Shown one piece after another: positions 2,186 through 7,041 of a stretch of DNA of 7,041 nt (the stretch's first letter is position 1; the number at the start of each line of letters is the position of its first letter). Made by a program: the position numbers and the translations under genes. The DNA is from a virus. Lineage: Duplodnaviria; Heunggongvirae; Uroviricota; Caudoviricetes. The stretch lies in the IMG/VR virus record IMGVR_UViG_2690316109_000023; one strand, given 5' to 3'. Below the pieces are notes generated by a model that worked only from the letters and a program-made list of their open reading frames with translations, searched no databases and was not told the DNA's origin.

Positions 2186-2520
2186 ACATAGGGCGACTGC
2201 GTGACAGGGTAACGATTCAGACCCTGAAACAGACCAGGGATATAACCGGCGAAATACTCGAAACGTGGGAGGACGGTCACACACTCTGGGCAAGCGTGAA
2301 CATGATCAGCAGCAAGGAGGCCATTTCATCGGGTGCAGAGCTGGCGATTGGTACCGTAAGGATCTGGATACGGTACCGGAAGGACATCAACGCCACCAGC
2401 CGGATAAAGGTCAGTACGGGGCCGCTGGCGGGGCGTGTACTGAATATCATCGGGCAGCCGCTGCCGGATGCCGCCAGGACACGCCTTGAAATTCTTTGTC
2501 GTGAGGGCGCGGAAAAATGA
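2182..2520 (+). CDS. Head-tail adaptor / head closure protein (Phage_H_T_join-like)
   Basis: N-terminus MNIGRLRDRVTIQ matches the G.LR.RVTIQ signature of head-tail adaptors. GAGGGA RBS 11 nt upstream. ATG 2182 overlaps the portal stop. An in-frame ATG at 2140 is a less likely start because it lies inside the portal gene. Confidence 0.8.
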   Translation: MNIGRLRDRVTIQTLKQTRDITGEILETWEDGHTLWASVNMISSKEAISSGAELAIGTVRIWIRYRKDINATSRIKVSTGPLAGRVLNIIGQPLPDAARTRLEILCREGAEK

Positions 2521-2837
2521 CAGAAGAACTTATCACCCATATAACCGGCGAAATACTCGAAACGTGGGTGGACGGTCACACACTCTGGGCAAGCGTGAAC
2601 ATGATCAGCAGCAAGGAGGCCATTTCATCGGGTGCAGAACTGGCGACTGGAACGGTAAGGATATGGATACGCTACAGGAAGGACATCAACGCCACCAGCC
2701 GGATAAAGGTCAATACGGGGCCGCTGGCGGGGCGTGTACTGAATATCATCGGGCAGCCGCTGCCGGATGCCGCCAGGACACGCCTTGAAATTCTTTGTCG
2801 TGAGGGCGCGGAAAAATGACAGAAGAACTTATCACCC
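2240..2837 (+). repeat. Tandem direct duplication of a 299-bp unit (copy 1 2240-2538, copy 2 2539-2837), 290/299 identical
   Basis: Base-by-base alignment of the two copies gives 9 mismatches (copy 1 positions 2270, 2340, 2348, 2352, 2355, 2364, 2373, 2377, 2414). The unit runs from codon ~20 of the adaptor gene to codon 7 of the connector gene. Confidence 0.92.
2517..2819 (+). CDS. Chimeric duplicate ORF: first 7 codons of the gp6-like connector (MTEELIT) fused in frame to adaptor residues ~21-112; possibly a pseudogene or accessory paralog
   Basis: Created by the 299-bp tandem duplication. ATG 2517 overlaps the adaptor stop (ATGA) and its own stop overlaps the connector ATG at 2816. Differs from the parental adaptor by 3 amino acids (E to V, I to T, S to N). 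Confidence 0.5.
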   Translation: MTEELITHITGEILETWVDGHTLWASVNMISSKEAISSGAELATGTVRIWIRYRKDINATSRIKVNTGPLAGRVLNIIGQPLPDAARTRLEILCREGAEK

Positions 2838-3112
2838 TGGAAGAAGTGAAACTCCATTGCCGCATCGATGGCGACGAGGAAGACCAGTTAATCAGCGGAT
2901 ACATTGCCGCATCGCTTGAGGCGTGCCAGATACACATAGGCAGGCGCTTTGATGACGGGCTGGAGTTCACGCCAGCCATAAAGATTGGCTGCATGATGTT
3001 TATCGCTCACCTGTATGAAAATCGCCAGATTGTCGCGGATAACGCAAAAACACGCGTACCCATGACGATTGGTGCACTCTGGACGGCTTACCGTGATGTG
3101 GGGGTGTACTGA
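2816..3112 (+). CDS. gp6-like head-tail connector protein
   Basis: N-terminus MTEELITLEEVKLHCRIDGDEEDQLISGYIAA resembles the gp6-like head-tail connector family. Stop TGA 3110-3112 overlaps the HNH ATG at 3112. Confidence 0.8.
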   Translation: MTEELITLEEVKLHCRIDGDEEDQLISGYIAASLEACQIHIGRRFDDGLEFTPAIKIGCMMFIAHLYENRQIVADNAKTRVPMTIGALWTAYRDVGVY

Positions 3113-3552
3113 TGCCGTGGCAACCATTAAGACGATGCACAGAACCAGGCTGTAACAGGCGCGTGAAGTCCGGCAAGTGTGAGGAGCACAGGCGGGCGGC
3201 ATGGCGTGCAGAGGATGCCAGACGAGGACACCGCCGCGCGCGTGGGTACTCCAGACAGTGGGAAAAATACCGCGCCATGTATCTGAGTAAAAACCCGTTA
3301 TGCGTGCGATGCCTTGAGAAGGGGATATATACGCCCGCCGTGGTGGTGGATCACATTATCCCGATTAATGGCGGTGATGATGTTCTCTTCTGGCCCGAAT
3401 GGAACCATCAGCCATTGTGCCAGGCGTGTCATAACCAGAAAACGAAGTGGCTTGATCCGGCAACAAAAAGCAAGCGTGCCGCTGGCGGATTCCGTGAGGA
3501 GGAAGAACGGGCCGCTAACCGCAATAACTGGATGTATGACGCTGATGAATGA
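3112..3552 (+). CDS. HNH endonuclease (terminase-associated)
   Basis: Cysteine pairs CTEPGC and CVRC, plus VVDHIIP and NHQPLCQACHNQKT, form an HNH/zinc-finger motif set. Located immediately upstream of terS/terL as in HNH-cos packaging systems. Confidence 0.88.
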   Translation: MPWQPLRRCTEPGCNRRVKSGKCEEHRRAAWRAEDARRGHRRARGYSRQWEKYRAMYLSKNPLCVRCLEKGIYTPAVVVDHIIPINGGDDVLFWPEWNHQPLCQACHNQKTKWLDPATKSKRAAGGFREEEERAANRNNWMYDADE

Positions 3553-3718
3553 GCGGGAACAAAACCGCCTTATCCGTGGACTTATAAGGCAGCGTGACGC
3601 ATGGAAGACACAGGAAACAGGGCATAAAGATAAAGCGTCAGGACGCGCAGAACGCATCACAGCGAAGCGATTAACCGACCGTGACCGCGAGGTTATGGAA
3701 TGTTTCCGCAATCGCTGA
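3545..3718 (+). CDS. Hypothetical small basic protein (57 aa)
   Basis: ORF MNEREQNRLIRGLIRQRDAWK... starts at an ATG overlapping the HNH stop (ATGAATGA), suggesting translational coupling. An in-frame ATG at 3536 is an alternative start. No recognisable domain. Confidence 0.35.
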   Translation: MNEREQNRLIRGLIRQRDAWKTQETGHKDKASGRAERITAKRLTDRDREVMECFRNR

Positions 3719-3842
3719 TGAGGCTGTATGACGGGGTGGGGGGGCGTTTTCAGGACAAACCCGACCCCGCCGGGCACCGAACGCCTCCTCAAATTTTTAT
3801 GCACGGGAATTTTTTGAAAAATAATCTGGCGAAAAAATAAGC
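3719..3842. other. Intergenic region between the HNH-side genes and terS; candidate cos/packaging site
   Basis: G-rich ACGGGGTGGGGGGG (3731-3744) and C-rich CCCGACCCCGCC (3760-3771) form an imperfect inverted repeat (CGGGGTGGGG vs reverse complement CGGGGTCGGG) around an 18-bp spacer, followed by AT-rich DNA. Its position matches where cos lies in HK97-type HNH-dependent systems. Confidence 0.25.
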
Positions 3843-4199
3843 ATGGCAAGACCACCGAAAGCCCCCGCCTACCTGGATGATATCGCCGTGAAGCAGTGGC
3901 GGGAAAAATCGCGGCAGCTTGCGGAACGGGGAGACCTTACCCCCGCCGACTGGAGTAATCTGGAACTGTATTGCGTCAATTACTCGATATACCGGAAAGC
4001 CGTCGCAGACCTTGCGGCACGCGGGTTCAGCATTGTTAACAGTCAGGGCGGCGAGAGCAGAAACCCCGCATTAAGCGCAAAATCCGACGCTGAAAGAGTG
4101 ATGATAAAAATGGCCTCCTTGCTCGGTTTTGACCCGGTAAGCCGCCGTAAAAATCCACCGGAAACAGAAGAAGAGGACGAGCTTGACCGCCTGGAATAA
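3843..4199 (+). CDS. Terminase small subunit (P27 family-like)
   Basis: 118-aa ORF starting MARPPKAPAYLD with an acidic C-terminal tail (ETEEEDELDRLE), immediately upstream of and overlapping the large terminase. Confidence 0.8.
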   Translation: MARPPKAPAYLDDIAVKQWREKSRQLAERGDLTPADWSNLELYCVNYSIYRKAVADLAARGFSIVNSQGGESRNPALSAKSDAERVMIKMASLLGFDPVSRRKNPPETEEEDELDRLE

Positions 4200-5844
4200 G
4201 TACGCAGAAGACGTAAAAACGGGCAAAATTCCGGCCTGTAAACGGTTAAAACAGGCTGTTAAACGGTACTTTTCGGACCTTAAAAGCCCCCTTTACACGT
4301 TCGATCGTGAGGTTGTGGAGCGGTTTATTGCCTTTTCCAGGGTGTGCCCGCACGTAAAAGGGCCGATGCGTGGCAGACCCATTGAGCTGGAGCCGTGGCA
4401 GCAGTTCGCCTTTGCGTGCATCCTCGGCTTTAAGGTTAAGGCCACCGGACGGCGCAAATACACGAGCGCCTTTATCGAAGTGCCGCGCAAAAATGCGAAA
4501 TCCACGACCGCCGCGATTCTGGCTGACTGGTTTCTGATTATGGAGAACGGTCAGCAGGATATTTACACCGCAGCGGTGAGCCGTGACCAGGCGCGGATCG
4601 TCTTTGATGATGCGCGTCAGATGTGCCTTTTATCCCGACCGTTACGCAGGCGGGTGAATATTCAGGCGCATAAGGTGATACACCCGAAAAGCAACAGCCT
4701 GTTAAAGCCGCTGGCAGCAAAAGCGGCAACCATCGAGGGAACAAACCCCAGCCTTTCCATCGTGGACGAATACCACTTGCACCCCGATAACGGCGTTTAT
4801 TCCGCGCTTGAGCTGGGGATGGGCGCACGTCCCGAAGGGCTGTTATTTGCCATTACCACATCAGGCAGCAACGTCGTTTCAGCCTGTAAGCAGCACTATG
4901 ATTATTGCTGCCAGATCCTGGACGGCGAAGAGGTTAACGATTCAATTTTTGTACTGATTTACGAACTGGACGACGAAAACGAGGTTGATGATCCGGCGAT
5001 GTGGATAAAGGCGAACCCTAATATTGATGTTTCCGTGGATCGTGAAAAACTGGCCTCAACCATCCAGAAAGCGCGGGGTATTCCGTCGCAGTGGGTGGAG
5101 ATGATGACAAAGCGATTTAATATCTGGTGTCAGGGGACTACCCCGTGGATGGGTAACGGCGCATGGGCTGAGTGTGCCGGAACGTTCACGGAGGAAGATT
5201 TACACGGCCAGGAGTGTTACGCGGGGCTGGATTTATCATCCACAAGCGATATTTCCAGCGTGTGCTATGCCTTTCCGGTCGGTAAAACCATTATGCTGGT
5301 TTCCCGTCATTATCTGCCGGAGTTCCAGCTACAGAACCCCGCCAATAAAAACCGCGCTGTCTATCGTCAGTGGGCTAAAGCAGGCTGGATACGCACAACG
5401 CCAGGTGACTGCATTGATTACGACCGGATCAGAGATGACATCATGCAGGACGCGGAGAAATTTAATATCAGGCTGGTGGGCTTTGATACGTGGAACGCCA
5501 CGCATCTCAGGACGCAATTACAGGGGGCTGGTTTTGAGGTGGAGCCGTTCCCGCAAACCTACCTCAGATTCAGTCCGGCGGCGAAATCGTTCGAAGTTTT
5601 TGTTAACCGCAGGGTGATTGTGCATCGTGGCGATCCGGTGTTGTCCTGGTCGATGAGTAACGTCGTGATGCAGAGTGACGCGAACGCCAATATCAAGCCG
5701 AACAAGAAAAAATCACCGAACAAGATAGACCCGAGCGTGGCGGCGCTGATGGCGTTTGGTACATTCCAGGCAGAGCATGAGGATTTTGCTTTTGATATAA
5801 GCGACAGCCACCGCCAGAAACTGGAAGAATTTAGCGGGGTGTAA
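4183..5844 (+). CDS. Terminase large subunit (HK97-type)
   Basis: 553-aa ORF of TerL size placed directly after terS. The first in-frame start is TTG at 4183, overlapping the terS 3' end by 17 nt; the next in-frame Met is ~60 codons downstream, so the TTG start is the likely one. Confidence 0.88.
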   Translation: MTAWNKYAEDVKTGKIPACKRLKQAVKRYFSDLKSPLYTFDREVVERFIAFSRVCPHVKGPMRGRPIELEPWQQFAFACILGFKVKATGRRKYTSAFIEVPRKNAKSTTAAILADWFLIMENGQQDIYTAAVSRDQARIVFDDARQMCLLSRPLRRRVNIQAHKVIHPKSNSLLKPLAAKAATIEGTNPSLSIVDEYHLHPDNGVYSALELGMGARPEGLLFAITTSGSNVVSACKQHYDYCCQILDGEEVNDSIFVLIYELDDENEVDDPAMWIKANPNIDVSVDREKLASTIQKARGIPSQWVEMMTKRFNIWCQGTTPWMGNGAWAECAGTFTEEDLHGQECYAGLDLSSTSDISSVCYAFPVGKTIMLVSRHYLPEFQLQNPANKNRAVYRQWAKAGWIRTTPGDCIDYDRIRDDIMQDAEKFNIRLVGFDTWNATHLRTQLQGAGFEVEPFPQTYLRFSPAAKSFEVFVNRRVIVHRGDPVLSWSMSNVVMQSDANANIKPNKKKSPNKIDPSVAALMAFGTFQAEHEDFAFDISDSHRQKLEEFSGV

Positions 5845-5857
5845 TGAGGTCAGCAGC

Positions 5858-6139
5858 ATGACAGAAGCCGAAATAACGGGATTAATCCGCCGCGTTGCCG
5901 GAATCAGCCAGCAGGCTGACGAACAGGCCACGCAGCCGGACAGCGTGACAGCCGAAAACTATGCGCGTGTTGTTGCTGAGGTGATGCGCCGTGATGGTAT
6001 AGAACTTAATGGCGTGGATATGCGCAACATACGAACCAGAGTTCTTGAGTTGCTGGCCTACCGTCGCCGCGTGGAGATGTATCGGGAGAAGGAGAAAATA
6101 ACGTACCACTGGAAGAAGCCGGAGCGGTTGCGGCGGTAA
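5858..6139 (+). CDS. Hypothetical protein (93 aa), last gene of the module
   Basis: ATG 5858 with GAGG 8 nt upstream, 13 nt after the terL stop. Charged, arginine-rich C-terminus. No recognisable domain. Confidence 0.5.
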   Translation: MTEAEITGLIRRVAGISQQADEQATQPDSVTAENYARVVAEVMRRDGIELNGVDMRNIRTRVLELLAYRRRVEMYREKEKITYHWKKPERLRR

Positions 6140-6289
6140 CTGGTTGATATTCCCGACGGACCAAAAATGGGTGGCTACATCCCTCGCTTCTGAGGACTGT
6201 TAACAAGCTGCCTGAAAGACAGTCACAAACTACGAAATTTTCGCAGTTTAATTAATGATCAGCTTAATCGCTAACCCGCAGATATTTTC

Positions 6290-6700
6290 GGAAACCTCAA
6301 TTTGAGGAAGTCGGCGCGGTAACTCGCTGAACTTTAAGCAAAGCGCAAAATTGCGCTTGCTGAATAATCATTATGATTACGCAGATGATTAAGGAATGAC
6401 CGAAGGCGGAAATTCGCCTGTGGTTAATGGGGGAGTTGCAGATCTGCAACTCGACCATGAAACTACGGAAACTACCCGTAGTTTGGGTAGTAAGAGTAAC
6501 ACCCAGATTTTGGGTCTTACTCGTGATACCCAAATTTGGGGTATCAGTGGCAACCATAACGACTTTCGTTACGGTTGATGCTTTTACCCCATTGGGGGAA
6601 AGGTATTACGATAATCATAACACCTACCGAACAGGTAAAGCCCACCAGCCTGATTAACGTTTAACCGGAAAAAAATTCCGGTAGGTGGGGATCCCCATAT
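6290..6700. other. Hairpin/palindrome-dense non-coding region
   Basis: At least ten dyad elements in ~400 bp: 6295-6307, 6341-6358, 6405-6418, 6433-6452 (perfect 20-mer), 6463-6491, 6494-6522, 6525-6545, 6551-6577, 6587-6597, 6664-6682, 6686-6697 (perfect 12-mer). ORFs in this region are rich in rare codons and lack RBSs. Confidence 0.6.
6433..6452. promoter_or_regulatory. Perfect 20-bp palindrome GAGTTGCAGATCTGCAACTC; candidate dimeric-protein binding site
   Basis: Exact reverse-complement symmetry over 20 bp, verified base by base. Confidence 0.4.
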
Positions 6701-6808
6701 CGACATTAACGCCCCTCATGAATTGGTGCGCTTCCCCCTGGAAAGATGATCCGCCTGTATATTTCTTGTGTCTATTTGTTCCACGTTGTTTCATACAGTG
6801 CACCGAAC

Positions 6809-6832
6809 GGTGTAGTCACTGGTGTAGTCATT
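6809..6832 (+). repeat. Tandem 12-bp direct repeat GGTGTAGTCACT / GGTGTAGTCATT; candidate recombinase arm-type or regulator binding sites
   Basis: 11/12 identical adjacent repeats about 75-95 bp inside the putative element end. Confidence 0.4.
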
Positions 6833-6876
6833 TTGCGATTTTTGGCACTTTTTGTGGTGCAAATTATTTAATTAAA

Positions 6877-7041
6877 TCAATTAGTTAGGTTAAATAAGTT
6901 ATATATAACAGCAATAAATAATGCGAGAATAAACGGCACGATGATCTCGGCGGCAAAACGGATACCGCAGAGAATAATGACCAGCATTCCCAACATAATG
7001 ACGATTTTTAGGCCATTGAGCGTGATGATCGGCTTTGCCAT
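6877..7041 (-). pseudogene. tqsA: 5' fragment of an AI-2E family transporter gene (tqsA/ydgG-like): about 45 native codons, then 9 foreign codons and a stop
   Basis: Minus-strand ATG at 7039-7041 translates to [45 protein letters not shown], then IYNLFNLTN and stop (TGA complement at 6877-6879). The hydrophobic N-terminus matches my recollection of E. coli TqsA. Sequence becomes AT-rich and non-coding exactly where the match ends (~6906). Confidence 0.55.

What the first reader, a model, noticed from the sequence alone, without database searches (positions are those of the whole stretch)
5858..6139. Unknown 93-aa protein as the last gene before the element end
It has a good RBS and is tightly packed after terL, but I recognise no domain. 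Terminal genes of satellites and prophages are frequent locations for accessory, moron or interference functions. Calling it a cargo gene is speculation.
Basis: inference. Interest (0 to 1): 0.35.

Follow-up and report, generated by a model that had tools for sequence, protein, structure and literature searches.

The report
Conserved last gene of PICI satellites
The 93-codon gene is real, but it is not cargo: it is a conserved gene of unknown function that sits last, next to the integration site, in many kinds of enterobacterial phage satellites and appears dispensable for their transfer in the laboratory.

Summary
The ORF at 5858-6139 (+) is as described: 93 codons, a GAGG ribosome-binding site, 13 nt after the terL stop, and no gene after it. 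The element itself ends 766 nt further on (attR core 6905-6913, inside tqsA).

The window is the right half of a capsid-forming PICI of the EcCIEDL933 type.

The ORF evolves as a protein-coding gene (dN/dS about 0.24). It matches no Pfam, NCBIfam, PADLOC or PDB family, and a predicted structure found no similar fold. It matches only two function-less phage-protein clusters, PHROG 1561 and 7271.

The family is not tied to TerL. Long (93 aa) and short (about 62 aa) forms are the last rightward gene, next to attP/attR, in at least five satellite layouts across Enterobacterales, including EcCICFT073 (gene c1505). It occupies 2012 places in 1567 of 5426 complete E. coli genomes, against 584 places for the cf-PICI TerL. 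It is essentially absent from true phages. Where cargo is present, it sits between TerL and this gene.

Published constructs, mapped here, indicate that c1505 does not inhibit lambda and that an island lacking it still transfers.

Verdict: a known but uncharacterised, non-essential satellite backbone gene encoding a small helical protein with a basic tail. Its mechanism is unknown; my best guess is a late-expressed factor that binds nucleic acid or a partner protein.

The parts
4183..5844 (+). terL (large terminase, HK97/P27 type). In this element it is the upstream neighbour of the ORF.
   Evidence: Pfam TerL_ATPase and TerL_nuclease match at E 3e-25 and 2e-50. PHROG 9 also matches.
5847..5850 (+). 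GAGG ribosome-binding site, 7 nt before the ATG.
   Evidence: Read from the sequence. In other alleles the ORF's ATG overlaps the terL stop (ATGA), as seen in the sequences printed.
5858..6139 (+). The 93-aa ORF. It belongs to the c1505 / '1795' small-protein family (PHROG 1561).
   Evidence: It matches PHROG 1561 over 93/93 positions. dN/dS is 0.24. Orthologues are EcCIEDL933 L084 9001-9282 and EcCICFT073 L093 3374-3655.
5858..5950 (+). Residues 1-31: an acidic N-terminal helix (H3-23) plus a low-confidence Q/E-rich linker. This part is absent from the short form and is the most variable region.
   Evidence: The AlphaFold model has pLDDT below 50 for residues 23-28. pN/pS is 0.59. Alignment A2 shows the short forms lack it.
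5951..6100 (+). Residues 32-81: the conserved core, made of helix 32-45, the turn G47-x-x-L50-N51-G-x-D54, and a long Arg-rich helix 52-80 (R59, R71, R76).
   Evidence: Invariant columns are listed. pLDDT is 85-91 over residues 31-70. pN/pS is 0.20 over residues 32-72.
6101..6136 (+). Residues 82-93: an unstructured basic tail, Y-x-W85-K-K87-P88-E-R-L-R-R. W, K and P are invariant in both the long and the short form.
   Evidence: Alignments A1 and A2. The AlphaFold model predicts no helix or strand here. Synonymous sites in this region vary freely (pS 0.45), so the constraint acts on the protein, not on the DNA.
6137..6151 (+). TAACTGGTTGATATT, the first of several TAAC..GATATT-like repeats (others at 6272-6291 and 6320-6335). 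It overlaps the stop codon and marks the boundary with the mosaic attP-arm region.
   Evidence: Repeat D3. Comparison with the AACCCGTTGATATTTTCG repeats downstream of c1505 in CFT073. Related elements diverge exactly at the last codon...LRR* versus ...LRT*. That these are integrase arm sites is inferred, not shown.
6424..6591 (.). A cluster of short palindromes/hairpins (ACCC-N5-8-GGGT, about 27 bp apart) in the non-coding region.
   Evidence: Inverted repeats I1-I4, I6 and I12. The same block follows the ORF in L040, L071 and L088. There is no Rfam match. Its function is unknown.
6809..6830 (+). GGTGTAGTCA x2, a direct repeat that also occurs next to attL/int of the same element type.
   Evidence: Repeat D6. 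A 23-nt match links L001 6464 and 21109. These are probably integrase arm-type sites (inferred).
6905..6913 (.). attR core ATAACAGCA, the right end of the element.
   Evidence: The same 9-mer occurs at both junctions of the near-identical element in L001, at 6328 and 21206.
6877..7041 (-). The 5' fragment of host tqsA, interrupted by the element.
   Evidence: Translation. RefSeq annotates it as a partial 'pheromone autoinducer 2 transporter', and the 3' part of tqsA lies at the other end of the element.

Best explanation
**What it is (shown).** The ORF is this element's copy of a small-protein family specific to enterobacterial PICI-type phage satellites. These include classical PICIs, capsid-forming PICIs and helper-embedded satellites. 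In all of them it is the last gene of the rightward 'late' gene block. Its stop codon abuts the non-coding attP arm, so in the excised circle the order is late genes, this gene, attP, int. It belongs to the conserved backbone and flanks the variable cargo site; it is not cargo itself, and it is not tied to TerL.

**The protein (predicted).** It is an 11-kDa, pI 9.8, all-helical, dipolar protein. It has an optional acidic N-terminal helix, a conserved helix-LNGxD-turn-long arginine-rich helix, and an invariant unstructured W-K-K-P basic tail.

**How it is made (inferred).** It is probably read from the late transcript and translated in step with the gene upstream.

**How it works (inferred, about 25% confidence).** The Arg/Trp/Lys surface binds nucleic acid or an acidic partner common to all these satellites. 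That partner would be a host or backbone component, not a capsid or terminase protein, because those differ between the carrier elements. The protein would act as a non-essential modulator late in the satellite cycle. It would not be a structural, packaging or helper-blocking protein.
For: **Identity and reality of the gene.**
- establish the ORF and its only family matches.
- dN/dS is 0.24, and composition equals that of its neighbours.

**Terminal position in different architectures.**
- After TerL: window, L001, EcCIEDL933 (L084), L089 and L003.
- After a DUF1441 gene in elements carrying a ClpP-protease/capsid fusion.
- After that fusion gene, inside a prophage gpA gene.
- After a TerS-like gene in an element with lambda E/D-type capsid genes.
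- After rppA and cos2 in EcCICFT073.
- Short form in Rahnella, Pluralibacter and Yersinia, and in the packaged 16.5-kb genome vB_KppS-Ant, where int follows it.

**Abundance and specificity.**
- 2012 places in 1567 of 5426 E. coli genomes, against 584 places for the cf-PICI terL.
- Only 36 clusters at 50% identity among 1.84 billion proteins.
- 2 of 50,697 phage records match, and both are satellite DNA.
- The short form occurs across Enterobacterales.

**Backbone, not cargo.**
- The module boundary falls at the stop codon.
- Cargo, where present, sits between TerL and the ORF.

**Protein features.**

**Dispensability and no lambda interference.** Statements and primers in PMC6739421, mapped here onto CFT073.
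Against: - No experiment or homology points to any binding partner. Foldseek found nothing (best E 1.4 against PDB, 0.59 against BFVD), so 'nucleic-acid binding' rests only on composition.
- Expression from the late transcript was not shown. It is inferred from spacing and from the absence of a promoter match.
- The gene is missing from about 10% of cf-PICI copies, and islands deleted for it still transfer. Any role is therefore subtle, conditional or redundant.
- The published lambda-inhibition result for c1505 is known only from the sentence 'none of the other genes' plus the plasmid list. The figure was not seen.
- 'Last gene' was checked in about a dozen contexts, not exhaustively. In one Pectobacterium locus (L095) the gene stands without a recognisable satellite, possibly as a remnant.
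Confidence: 0.55

Rival explanations
1. **Cargo / moron / anti-phage or helper-interference gene.** An accessory gene carried for the benefit of the host or the satellite, unrelated to the satellite's own cycle.
For: - It occupies a terminal position, next to the region that He et al. call variable and 'expected to encode immune systems'.
- It is dispensable for transfer and absent from some copies.
- It has no known domain.
Against: - It is conserved in the same place in most copies and in five satellite architectures.
- It shows purifying selection, native composition and no promoter match, and it is packed against the upstream gene.
- Variable genes sit upstream of it, not in its place.
- PADLOC gives no hit.
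- c1505 is among the clones that did not reduce lambda plaques.
Confidence: 0.1
2. **Packaging or head-assembly accessory.** For example a terminase cofactor, a cos-end factor, or a CpmB-like internal scaffold whose conserved C-terminal tail docks on a capsid or portal protein.
For: - It always follows the gene that sets packaging specificity: TerL, a TerS-like gene, RppA or DUF1441.
- In several alleles it is translationally coupled to terL.
- It is a small helical protein with a conserved tail, as CpmB and phi29 gp7 are (comparison from my own knowledge).
Against: - Nearly the same protein (at least 81% nt identity) serves elements with unrelated capsid and terminase genes: HK97-type, lambda E/D-type and the ClpP-capsid fusion.
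- It is absent from the phages that use those machineries.
- EcCICFT073 deleted for c1504-c1507 is the island whose packaging and transfer were measured.
- It is not mentioned among the packaging-module genes in the main text of the EcCIEDL933 study.
- About 10% of cf-PICIs lack it.
Confidence: 0.12
3. **Recombination directionality or attP-architecture factor.** A small basic protein encoded next to attP that bends DNA or steers the integrase.
For: - Its size (62-93 aa) and pI (9.8-10.5) fit recombination directionality factors (plus my own knowledge of such factors).
- Its stop codon touches the first attP-arm repeat, and it is always the gene nearest attP on the side opposite int.
Against: - It does not co-vary with the integrase or attP module. 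The same protein sits next to at least six different att regions and two arm-repeat types, and recombination breakpoints fall exactly at its stop codon.
- These satellites already use AlpA for excision.
- The c1504-07::cat island excises, transfers and integrates.
- The predicted structure shows no Xis- or Cox-like fold match.
Confidence: 0.1
4. **Host- or helper-directed modulator.** It would act on a conserved cellular target such as transcription termination, a nucleoid protein or a nuclease. P4 Psu, the last gene of P4's late operon, acts on Rho in this way.
For: - The only thing common to all carrier elements is the enterobacterial host, lambdoid helpers and the int-alpA-primase backbone.
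- The N-terminal part evolves faster (pN/pS 0.59), as expected for a partner-contact surface.
- The positional analogy to Psu is from my own knowledge.
Against: - There is no similarity to Psu or to any known host-factor inhibitor.
- No phenotype has been reported.
- This rival overlaps with the best explanation and differs only in the target.
Confidence: 0.13

Closest known systems
EcCICFT073 c1505 (WP_000133413.1), the gene after rppA in the prototype E. coli PICI
   Same: It is an orthologue: 93 aa, with the same motifs (MTEAE..., ENY.RVVAEV, LN.VD, YHWKKPERLRR). It is the last gene before the attR-side non-coding region.
   Different: Its upstream neighbour is rppA plus an inverted lambda-type cosN, not terL. 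The element integrates beside phoQ, not in tqsA. c1505 has been cloned, and it was deleted in a marked island, but it was never discussed or named.
EcCIEDL933 last gene (WP_000133425.1; '1795' by my count of locus tags), in the prototype cf-PICI
   Same: It has the same gene order, capsid through TerL and then this ORF. It is 89.7% identical in nucleotide sequence.
   Different: It uses a different att site (phoQ side). The study's marked island is '1795-1796::cat'. Whether that is an insertion or a replacement could not be checked. The equation with '1795' is inferred from capsid = 1786 and 'hypothetical 1792'.
PHROG 1561 and PHROG 7271 (phage-protein clusters of unknown function)
   Same: PHROG 1561 matches over its full length (93/93, E 3e-56). 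PHROG 7271 corresponds to the short form (residues 37-93, E 6e-8).
   Different: Neither cluster carries any annotation. The 'phage' records that hold the family are satellites deposited as phages.
P4 Psu (last gene of the P4 satellite late operon; Rho antagonist and capsid decoration)
   Same: Positional analogy only: a helical protein encoded at the end of a satellite's late operon (from my own knowledge).
   Different: There is no sequence or fold similarity. Psu is about 190 aa. No test was made for any effect on Rho.
SaPI CpmB / phi29 gp7 (small helical internal scaffolds with a functional C-terminal tail)
   Same: A small, helical, satellite-encoded protein with a conserved, flexible C-terminal tail (analogy from my own knowledge).
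   Different: The family occurs with unrelated capsid genes and is dispensable for transfer. There is no similarity in Foldseek.
Recombination directionality factors (Xis, Cox, Vis/AlpA)
   Same: A small, basic protein encoded next to attP.
   Different: There is no HTH or winged-helix match, no co-variation with int/attP, and AlpA is already present.

Membership tests
Capsid-forming PICI (cf-PICI, EcCIEDL933 type): the element that carries the ORF | An HK97-type head and packaging block in the order capsid, protease, portal, head-tail connectors, HNH, TerS, TerL. | tested here: met
   Pfam finds the families in this order in the window. The order is the one described for proteobacterial cf-PICIs.
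Capsid-forming PICI (cf-PICI, EcCIEDL933 type): the element that carries the ORF | A PICI backbone (int, alpA-type regulator, primase), no tail or lysis genes, and a size of about 15 kb. | tested here: met
   The near-identical element in L001 has an integrase, an HTH regulator, an Icd-like gene, DUF4222, a primase, SSB and PerC, and no tail genes. It spans about 14.9 kb between the two ATAACAGCA cores. The left half lies outside the window, so this is shown on the relative, not on the window.
Capsid-forming PICI (cf-PICI, EcCIEDL933 type): the element that carries the ORF | Induction by a helper phage and formation of its own small capsids. | not testable with these tools
   Shown experimentally only for EcCIEDL933 and a few other islands.
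c1505 / '1795' small-protein family (PHROG 1561; short form PHROG 7271) | A full-length sequence match with the invariant residues G47, L50, N51, R59, W85, K87 and P88. | tested here: met
c1505 / '1795' small-protein family (PHROG 1561; short form PHROG 7271) | Position as the last rightward gene of a PICI-type satellite, abutting the attP/attR arm. | tested here: met
   Window, plus 12 further contexts.
   Pfam, NCBIfam, annotated PHROGs and PDB sequences give none. Foldseek's best E-values are 1.4 (PDB) and 0.59 (BFVD). The model has a mean pLDDT of 74.
Moron / cargo gene | Patchy presence among otherwise identical elements, its own promoter and terminator, and atypical composition. | tested here: not met
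   It is present in most copies and in several satellite types. There is no promoter match on the + strand. G+C and GC3 equal those of terL. Real variable genes lie upstream of it.
Known anti-phage defence protein | A match to a defence-system model. | tested here: not met
   PADLOC gives no hit at E<=1 for either the long or the short form.
Helper-interference protein (Rpp / Ppi-like) | Expression alone reduces helper plaque formation. | tested here: inconclusive
   I ran no experiment. PMC6739421 states that of the cloned EcCICFT073 genes only c1503 reduced lambda plaques. The clone list includes pBAD18-c1505, whose primers I mapped to L093 3317-3690 in the sense orientation. Only lambda, 80 and HK97 are named there.
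Recombination directionality factor | Needed for excision, co-evolves with its integrase and attP, and has an HTH or winged-helix fold. | tested here: not met
   It does not co-vary with the att module. There is no fold match. The island with c1504-c1507 replaced still serves as the transferable 'wild type'.

The most novel reading that the evidence does not exclude
The family is a hallmark gene of Gram-negative PICI-type satellites with a new activity of its own. It would be a late-made, 60-90-aa Arg/Trp-tailed protein acting on a host or helper process shared by all these elements. Candidate processes are transcription termination or read-through at the late-operon/attP junction, protection or circularisation of incoming satellite DNA, and control of helper timing. 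Standard laboratory transfer assays would have missed it because the marked islands lack the gene or leave it untested.
Probability: 0.2. Interest if true: 0.6.

Novelty: already known. Interest (0 to 1): 0.35.

Why it matters
About 29% of complete E. coli genomes carry this gene, some in up to six copies. It is the fixed neighbour of the site where PICI-type satellites carry variable cargo. That makes it a practical landmark for finding the right end and the cargo hotspot of these islands.

It is also one of the few conserved backbone genes of Gram-negative PICIs with no assigned role. Published constructs have deleted or bypassed it rather than tested it.

If it has a function, it is probably one that matters outside standard transfer assays.

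Tried and rejected
**Homology searches that gave nothing.**
- Sequence libraries: Pfam, NCBIfam, PADLOC and PDB sequences.
- Structure: the single-sequence AlphaFold model was poor (pLDDT 61). The alignment-based model (pLDDT 74) found nothing in Foldseek against PDB or BFVD.
- RNA: there is no Rfam family anywhere in the window.

**Searches that were too narrow or too noisy.**
- The genome-contig scan used two exact 8-residue patterns and returned only one locus.
- I tried to count PICI backbones with primase and DUF927 probes, to get the fraction of PICIs that carry the gene. The probes cross-hit P4-like primases, so there is no clean denominator.

**Ideas considered and dropped.**
- *Homology to Fis.* It was suggested by the Fis/short-form chimera P0218. 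hhalign gives 5% probability, and the chimera sits at a contig end.
- *First DNA to enter the recipient.* I considered this because an inverted cosN lies 76 nt upstream of c1505. That site, however, falls inside the tolerated c1504-07::cat deletion, so I take it to be the dispensable cos2 of PMC6739421. I take the forward cosN upstream of rppA (L093 2559) to be the essential cos1, and in cf-PICIs the HNH-terS gap is where I would place cos.
- *Downstream palindromes as the protein's target.* Their presence does not track with the gene.
- *C-terminal invariance imposed by an overlapping DNA site.* Synonymous sites there vary most of all.
- *The antisense frame 5882-6109 as the real gene.* It corresponds in position to an old CFT073 call, c1506. 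dN/dS on the + frame and RefSeq both support the + frame.

**Literature.** Searches for c1505 and for the WP accessions found nothing relevant.
Full report
**1. Observation**

The window carries, on the + strand:

| Gene | Coordinates |
|---|---|
| 3' end of an HK97-type major capsid gene | 31-360 |
| prohead protease | 400-972 |
| portal | 974-2185 |
| head-closure ORFs (two) | 2140-2520, 2517-2819 |
| gp6-like connector | 2816-3112 |
| HNH endonuclease | 3112-3552 |
| P27-type TerS | 3843-4199 |
| TerL | 4183-5844 |
| the ORF in question | 5858-6139 |

The ORF has an ATG start, with GAGG 7 nt upstream, and begins 13 nt after the terL stop. No further gene follows it.

A minus-strand ORF at 7041-6877 is the 5' end of host tqsA. 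The 9-bp core ATAACAGCA at 6905-6913 is repeated at the other junction of the near-identical element in E. coli O157:H7 PV15-279 (locus L001). The coordinates and the description are therefore right. The one qualification is that 766 nt of A+T-richer non-coding DNA (43% G+C) lie between the stop codon and the end of the element.

**2. The gene is real**

- RefSeq annotates an identical CDS.
- Across 35 distinct alleles taken from related loci, mean dS is 0.46 and mean dN is 0.11, giving dN/dS of about 0.24.
- By region, the ratio is 0.59 for residues 1-31, 0.20 for residues 32-72 and 0.24 for residues 73-93.
- Synonymous change is highest in the last 21 codons. The invariance of the C-terminal peptide is therefore a constraint on the protein, not on an overlapping DNA site.
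- G+C and GC3 equal those of terL.

**3. What the element is**

L001 shows the whole island. Between the two halves of tqsA it carries an integrase, an HTH (AlpA-like) regulator, an Icd-like gene, DUF4222, a primase, SSB and PerC, then the head/packaging block and this ORF. It has no tail genes.

That is the organisation of the capsid-forming PICIs described by Alqurainy et al. (bioRxiv 10.1101/2022.09.08.507074) and He et al. (10.1101/2025.02.11.637232).

The prototype EcCIEDL933 has the same gene order and an orthologue of the ORF (89.7% nt identity) as its last gene, next to phoQ. Two statements in those papers let me count locus tags: capsid = gene 1786, and 'hypothetical gene 1792' lies in the packaging module. 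By that count the orthologue should be gene 1795. This equation is my inference.

The main text of that study does not mention 1795. The marked island used throughout is named 'EcCIEDL933 1795-1796::cat'.

**4. No homology to anything with a function**

- Pfam, NCBIfam and PADLOC give nothing.
- A profile of the family finds nothing among PDB sequences.
- The only hits are PHROG 1561 (full length) and PHROG 7271 (C-terminal two thirds), both unannotated.
- A full HMMER scan of 1.84 billion representative proteins found only 36 clusters at 50% identity. Most are fragments or frameshifted copies.

The alignment-based AlphaFold model has a mean pLDDT of 74, rising to 85-91 over residues 31-70. 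It shows three helices (3-23, 32-45, 52-80) and a tail with no predicted helix or strand. Foldseek finds no significant neighbour in PDB or BFVD.

The protein is dipolar. The first 55 residues carry a net charge of -5, and the last 38 carry +9. The pI is 9.8.

**5. The family is not a TerL companion**

This is the main result. A short form of 62-65 aa lacks the N-terminal helix but keeps helix-LNGxD-helix and the W-K-K-P tail. It follows TerL in a Klebsiella 'phage' record and is itself followed by an integrase, so that record shows the circularly permuted satellite.

Searches seeded with short forms find them in Klebsiella, Enterobacter, Citrobacter, Raoultella, Pluralibacter, Kluyvera, Leclercia, Phytobacter, Buttiauxella, Rahnella, Rouxiella, Yersinia and Pectobacterium. 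All are annotated 'hypothetical'.

The gene is always the last rightward gene, but its upstream neighbour differs:

| Context | Upstream neighbour |
|---|---|
| cf-PICIs | TerL |
| Islands with a ClpP-protease/capsid fusion, at tRNA-Ile and clpS | a DUF1441 gene |
| A satellite sitting inside a prophage gpA gene | the ClpP-protease/capsid fusion itself |
| An island with lambda E/D-type capsid genes | a TerS-like gene |
| Rahnella, Pluralibacter | unknown 116-205-aa genes |
| Yersinia | TerL plus two extra genes |
| EcCICFT073, the classical PICI prototype | rppA plus an inverted cosN |

The counts agree with this. The ORF occupies 2012 places in 1567 of 5426 complete E. coli genomes. The cf-PICI terL occupies 584 places in 538 genomes.

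True phages do not have the family. tblastn of the long and short forms against 50,697 phage records hits two records. One is a 16.5-kb packaged cf-PICI genome ordered TerS-TerL-...-ORF-int-...-HNH. The other is the Klebsiella record above.

Satellites embedded in prophage late genes, and PICIs at fis and hpt, are the elements described by Tommasini, Mageeney and Williams (10.1101/2022.07.18.500453). That paper's 'late zone' ends with this gene, but the sections I read do not single it out.

**6. Backbone, not cargo**

- Related elements diverge exactly at the ORF's last codon (...LRR* versus ...LRT*). The sequence after it is a mosaic of short modules that goes with the att/int type.
- The first TAAC..GATATT repeat overlaps the stop codon. 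CFT073 shows a series of such repeats there. I take them to be integrase arm sites; this is inferred.
- Where additional, variable genes are present, they sit between TerL and this ORF: 201 + 116 aa in Yersinia, and 765 + 69 aa in vB_KppS-Ant. This fits the 'variable region after the packaging module' of He et al..
- The ORF is thus the conserved flank of the cargo site.
- No sigma-70-type promoter match lies on its strand in 5500-7041.
- In several alleles its ATG overlaps the terL stop.

**7. What published constructs say**

[quoted passage not shown] The supplementary primer table lists clones for c1500 to c1507.

I mapped the primers onto CFT073 (locus L093):

| Construct | L093 coordinates | What it contains |
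|---|---|---|
| c1505 clone | 3317-3690 | the orthologue (3374-3655), in sense orientation |
| 'c1506' clone | 3376-3888 | by its restriction sites, apparently cloned for an ORF on the opposite strand |
| c1504 clone | 3064-3337 | the cos-bearing spacer |
| 'c1504-07::cat' | replaces 3104-4001 | removes the orthologue and the inverted cosN at 3298 |

The strain names in the supplementary table identify the c1504-07::cat island as the 'EcCICFT073 cat' whose transfer and rppA mutants were assayed. I therefore infer that the gene is not needed for induction, packaging, transfer or establishment under those conditions. I also infer that its over-expression does not block lambda.

The authors do not state these conclusions, and I did not see the figures.

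Independently, 55 complete E. coli genomes carry a cf-PICI in which terL runs straight into the attP arm with no ORF.

**8. Mechanism**

*Shown:*
- It is a conserved, satellite-specific terminal gene under purifying selection.
- Its product is predicted to be a small helical protein with an Arg-rich helix and an invariant W-K-K-P tail.
- It is unrelated to known folds.

*Inferred:*
- It is dispensable in laboratory transfer (section 7).
- It is expressed from the late transcript.
- Its partner is something common to all carrier elements. That means host, helper class or the int-alpA-primase backbone, not capsid or terminase, because those differ between carriers.

My best guess, at about 25%, is binding of nucleic acid or an acidic partner through the basic C-terminal half. 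The optional, faster-evolving acidic N-terminal helix would act as a modulating or partner-specific part.

The rivals are set out with their tests in the report sections: cargo/defence, packaging accessory, recombination factor, and host/helper modulator. None can be excluded without experiments. The first three each fail at least one test made here.

**9. Comparison and novelty**

The gene already exists in databases and in two prototype islands (c1505 and '1795'). It has been cloned, and it was deleted in a marked island, without comment. As an object it is known.

Three points add to what I found in the papers read here:
- It is a shared terminal landmark of several satellite classes.
- It is absent from phages.
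- It is not cargo.

Its function remains open.

**10. Verdict**

The 'cargo' reading is not supported, while 'accessory and unknown' stands. Interest is modest (0.35): this is an ordinary conserved hypothetical gene, made somewhat more interesting by its abundance, its satellite specificity and its fixed position.

Noticed in passing
window 2240-2837: A 299-bp tandem duplication (2.0 copies, 96% identical) inside the head-closure gene gives two ORFs, 2140-2520 (126 aa) and 2517-2819 (100 aa). The best-matching complete E. coli genomes have a single copy: the 1301-nt query aligns to only 1002 nt of each record.
   Followed up: partly
window 6424-6591: A cluster of short palindromes/hairpins (ACCC-N5-8-GGGT, centres about 27 bp apart). 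The same block follows the small ORF in other satellites (L040, L071, L088). It has no Rfam match and no annotated feature in any genome. It could be a protein-binding array or an RNA structure.
   Followed up: partly
window 6137-6151, 6272-6291, 6320-6335 and 6809-6830: TAAC..GATATT-like repeats start at the ORF's stop codon. A GGTGTAGTCA x2 repeat recurs next to attL/int in L001. Both are probably integrase arm-type sites of attP.
   Followed up: partly
window 6877-7041 (-) and 6905-6913: The element is inserted inside the host AI-2 exporter gene tqsA, which is left split. The 9-bp core ATAACAGCA lies at both junctions. 176 of 5426 E. coli genomes match at least 80% of window 5700-7041, which spans this right-hand junction.
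   Followed up: partly
L045, L047, L049 and similar (TerL end about 5659 onward); E. coli 042 NC_017626.1 about 2,236,000: One cf-PICI lineage lacks the small ORF. In it, terL runs directly into GCGGGTTAT/ATAACCCGC arm repeats, and the element sits inside the large-terminase gene of a prophage. This matches the helper-embedded satellite type of Tommasini et al. 2022. It occurs in 55 complete E. coli genomes.
   Followed up: partly
L096 7040-7992 (Yersinia); L097 2036-4548 (vB_KppS-Ant): Variable genes are inserted between TerL and the small ORF. Yersinia has 201 + 116 aa, the first with a faint Lambda_tail_I match. vB_KppS-Ant has a 765-aa protein annotated 'tape measure' plus a 69-aa protein. 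These are candidate cargo or tail-related genes of cf-PICIs.
   Followed up: no
LR881103.1 (L097) and PQ569648.1 (L003): Two GenBank 'phage' records contain satellite DNA. The first is a complete 16.5-kb packaged cf-PICI genome. The second is a 106-kb record containing a cf-PICI TerS-TerL-small ORF-int segment.
   Followed up: partly
L093 2559 (+) and 3298 (-): EcCICFT073 carries two lambda-type cosN sequences (GGGCGGCGACCT) in inverted orientation on either side of rppA. The second lies 76 nt upstream of c1505 and inside the c1504-07::cat deletion.
   Followed up: partly
window 3536-3718 (+), inside the 3314-3718 ORF: A small ORF between HNH and terS corresponds to the annotated 60-aa hypothetical protein WP_000174068.1. 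By my count it is 'gene 1792' of EcCIEDL933, whose mutation severely reduced transfer. The gap where the cos site is expected lies here.
   Followed up: no
L094 3317-3568 (protein P0218): A chimeric ORF at the end of a contig joins the first 46 residues of Fis to the C-terminal half of the short form at the shared LNGQD. hhalign gives 5% probability of homology. It is probably an assembly or recombination artefact near the fis attachment site used by many of these islands.
   Followed up: yes
L095 8001-8189 (Pectobacterium brasiliense): A short-form copy stands with no recognisable satellite genes upstream, between an acyltransferase gene and a DUF3892 gene. It may be the remnant of a decayed island.
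   Followed up: no
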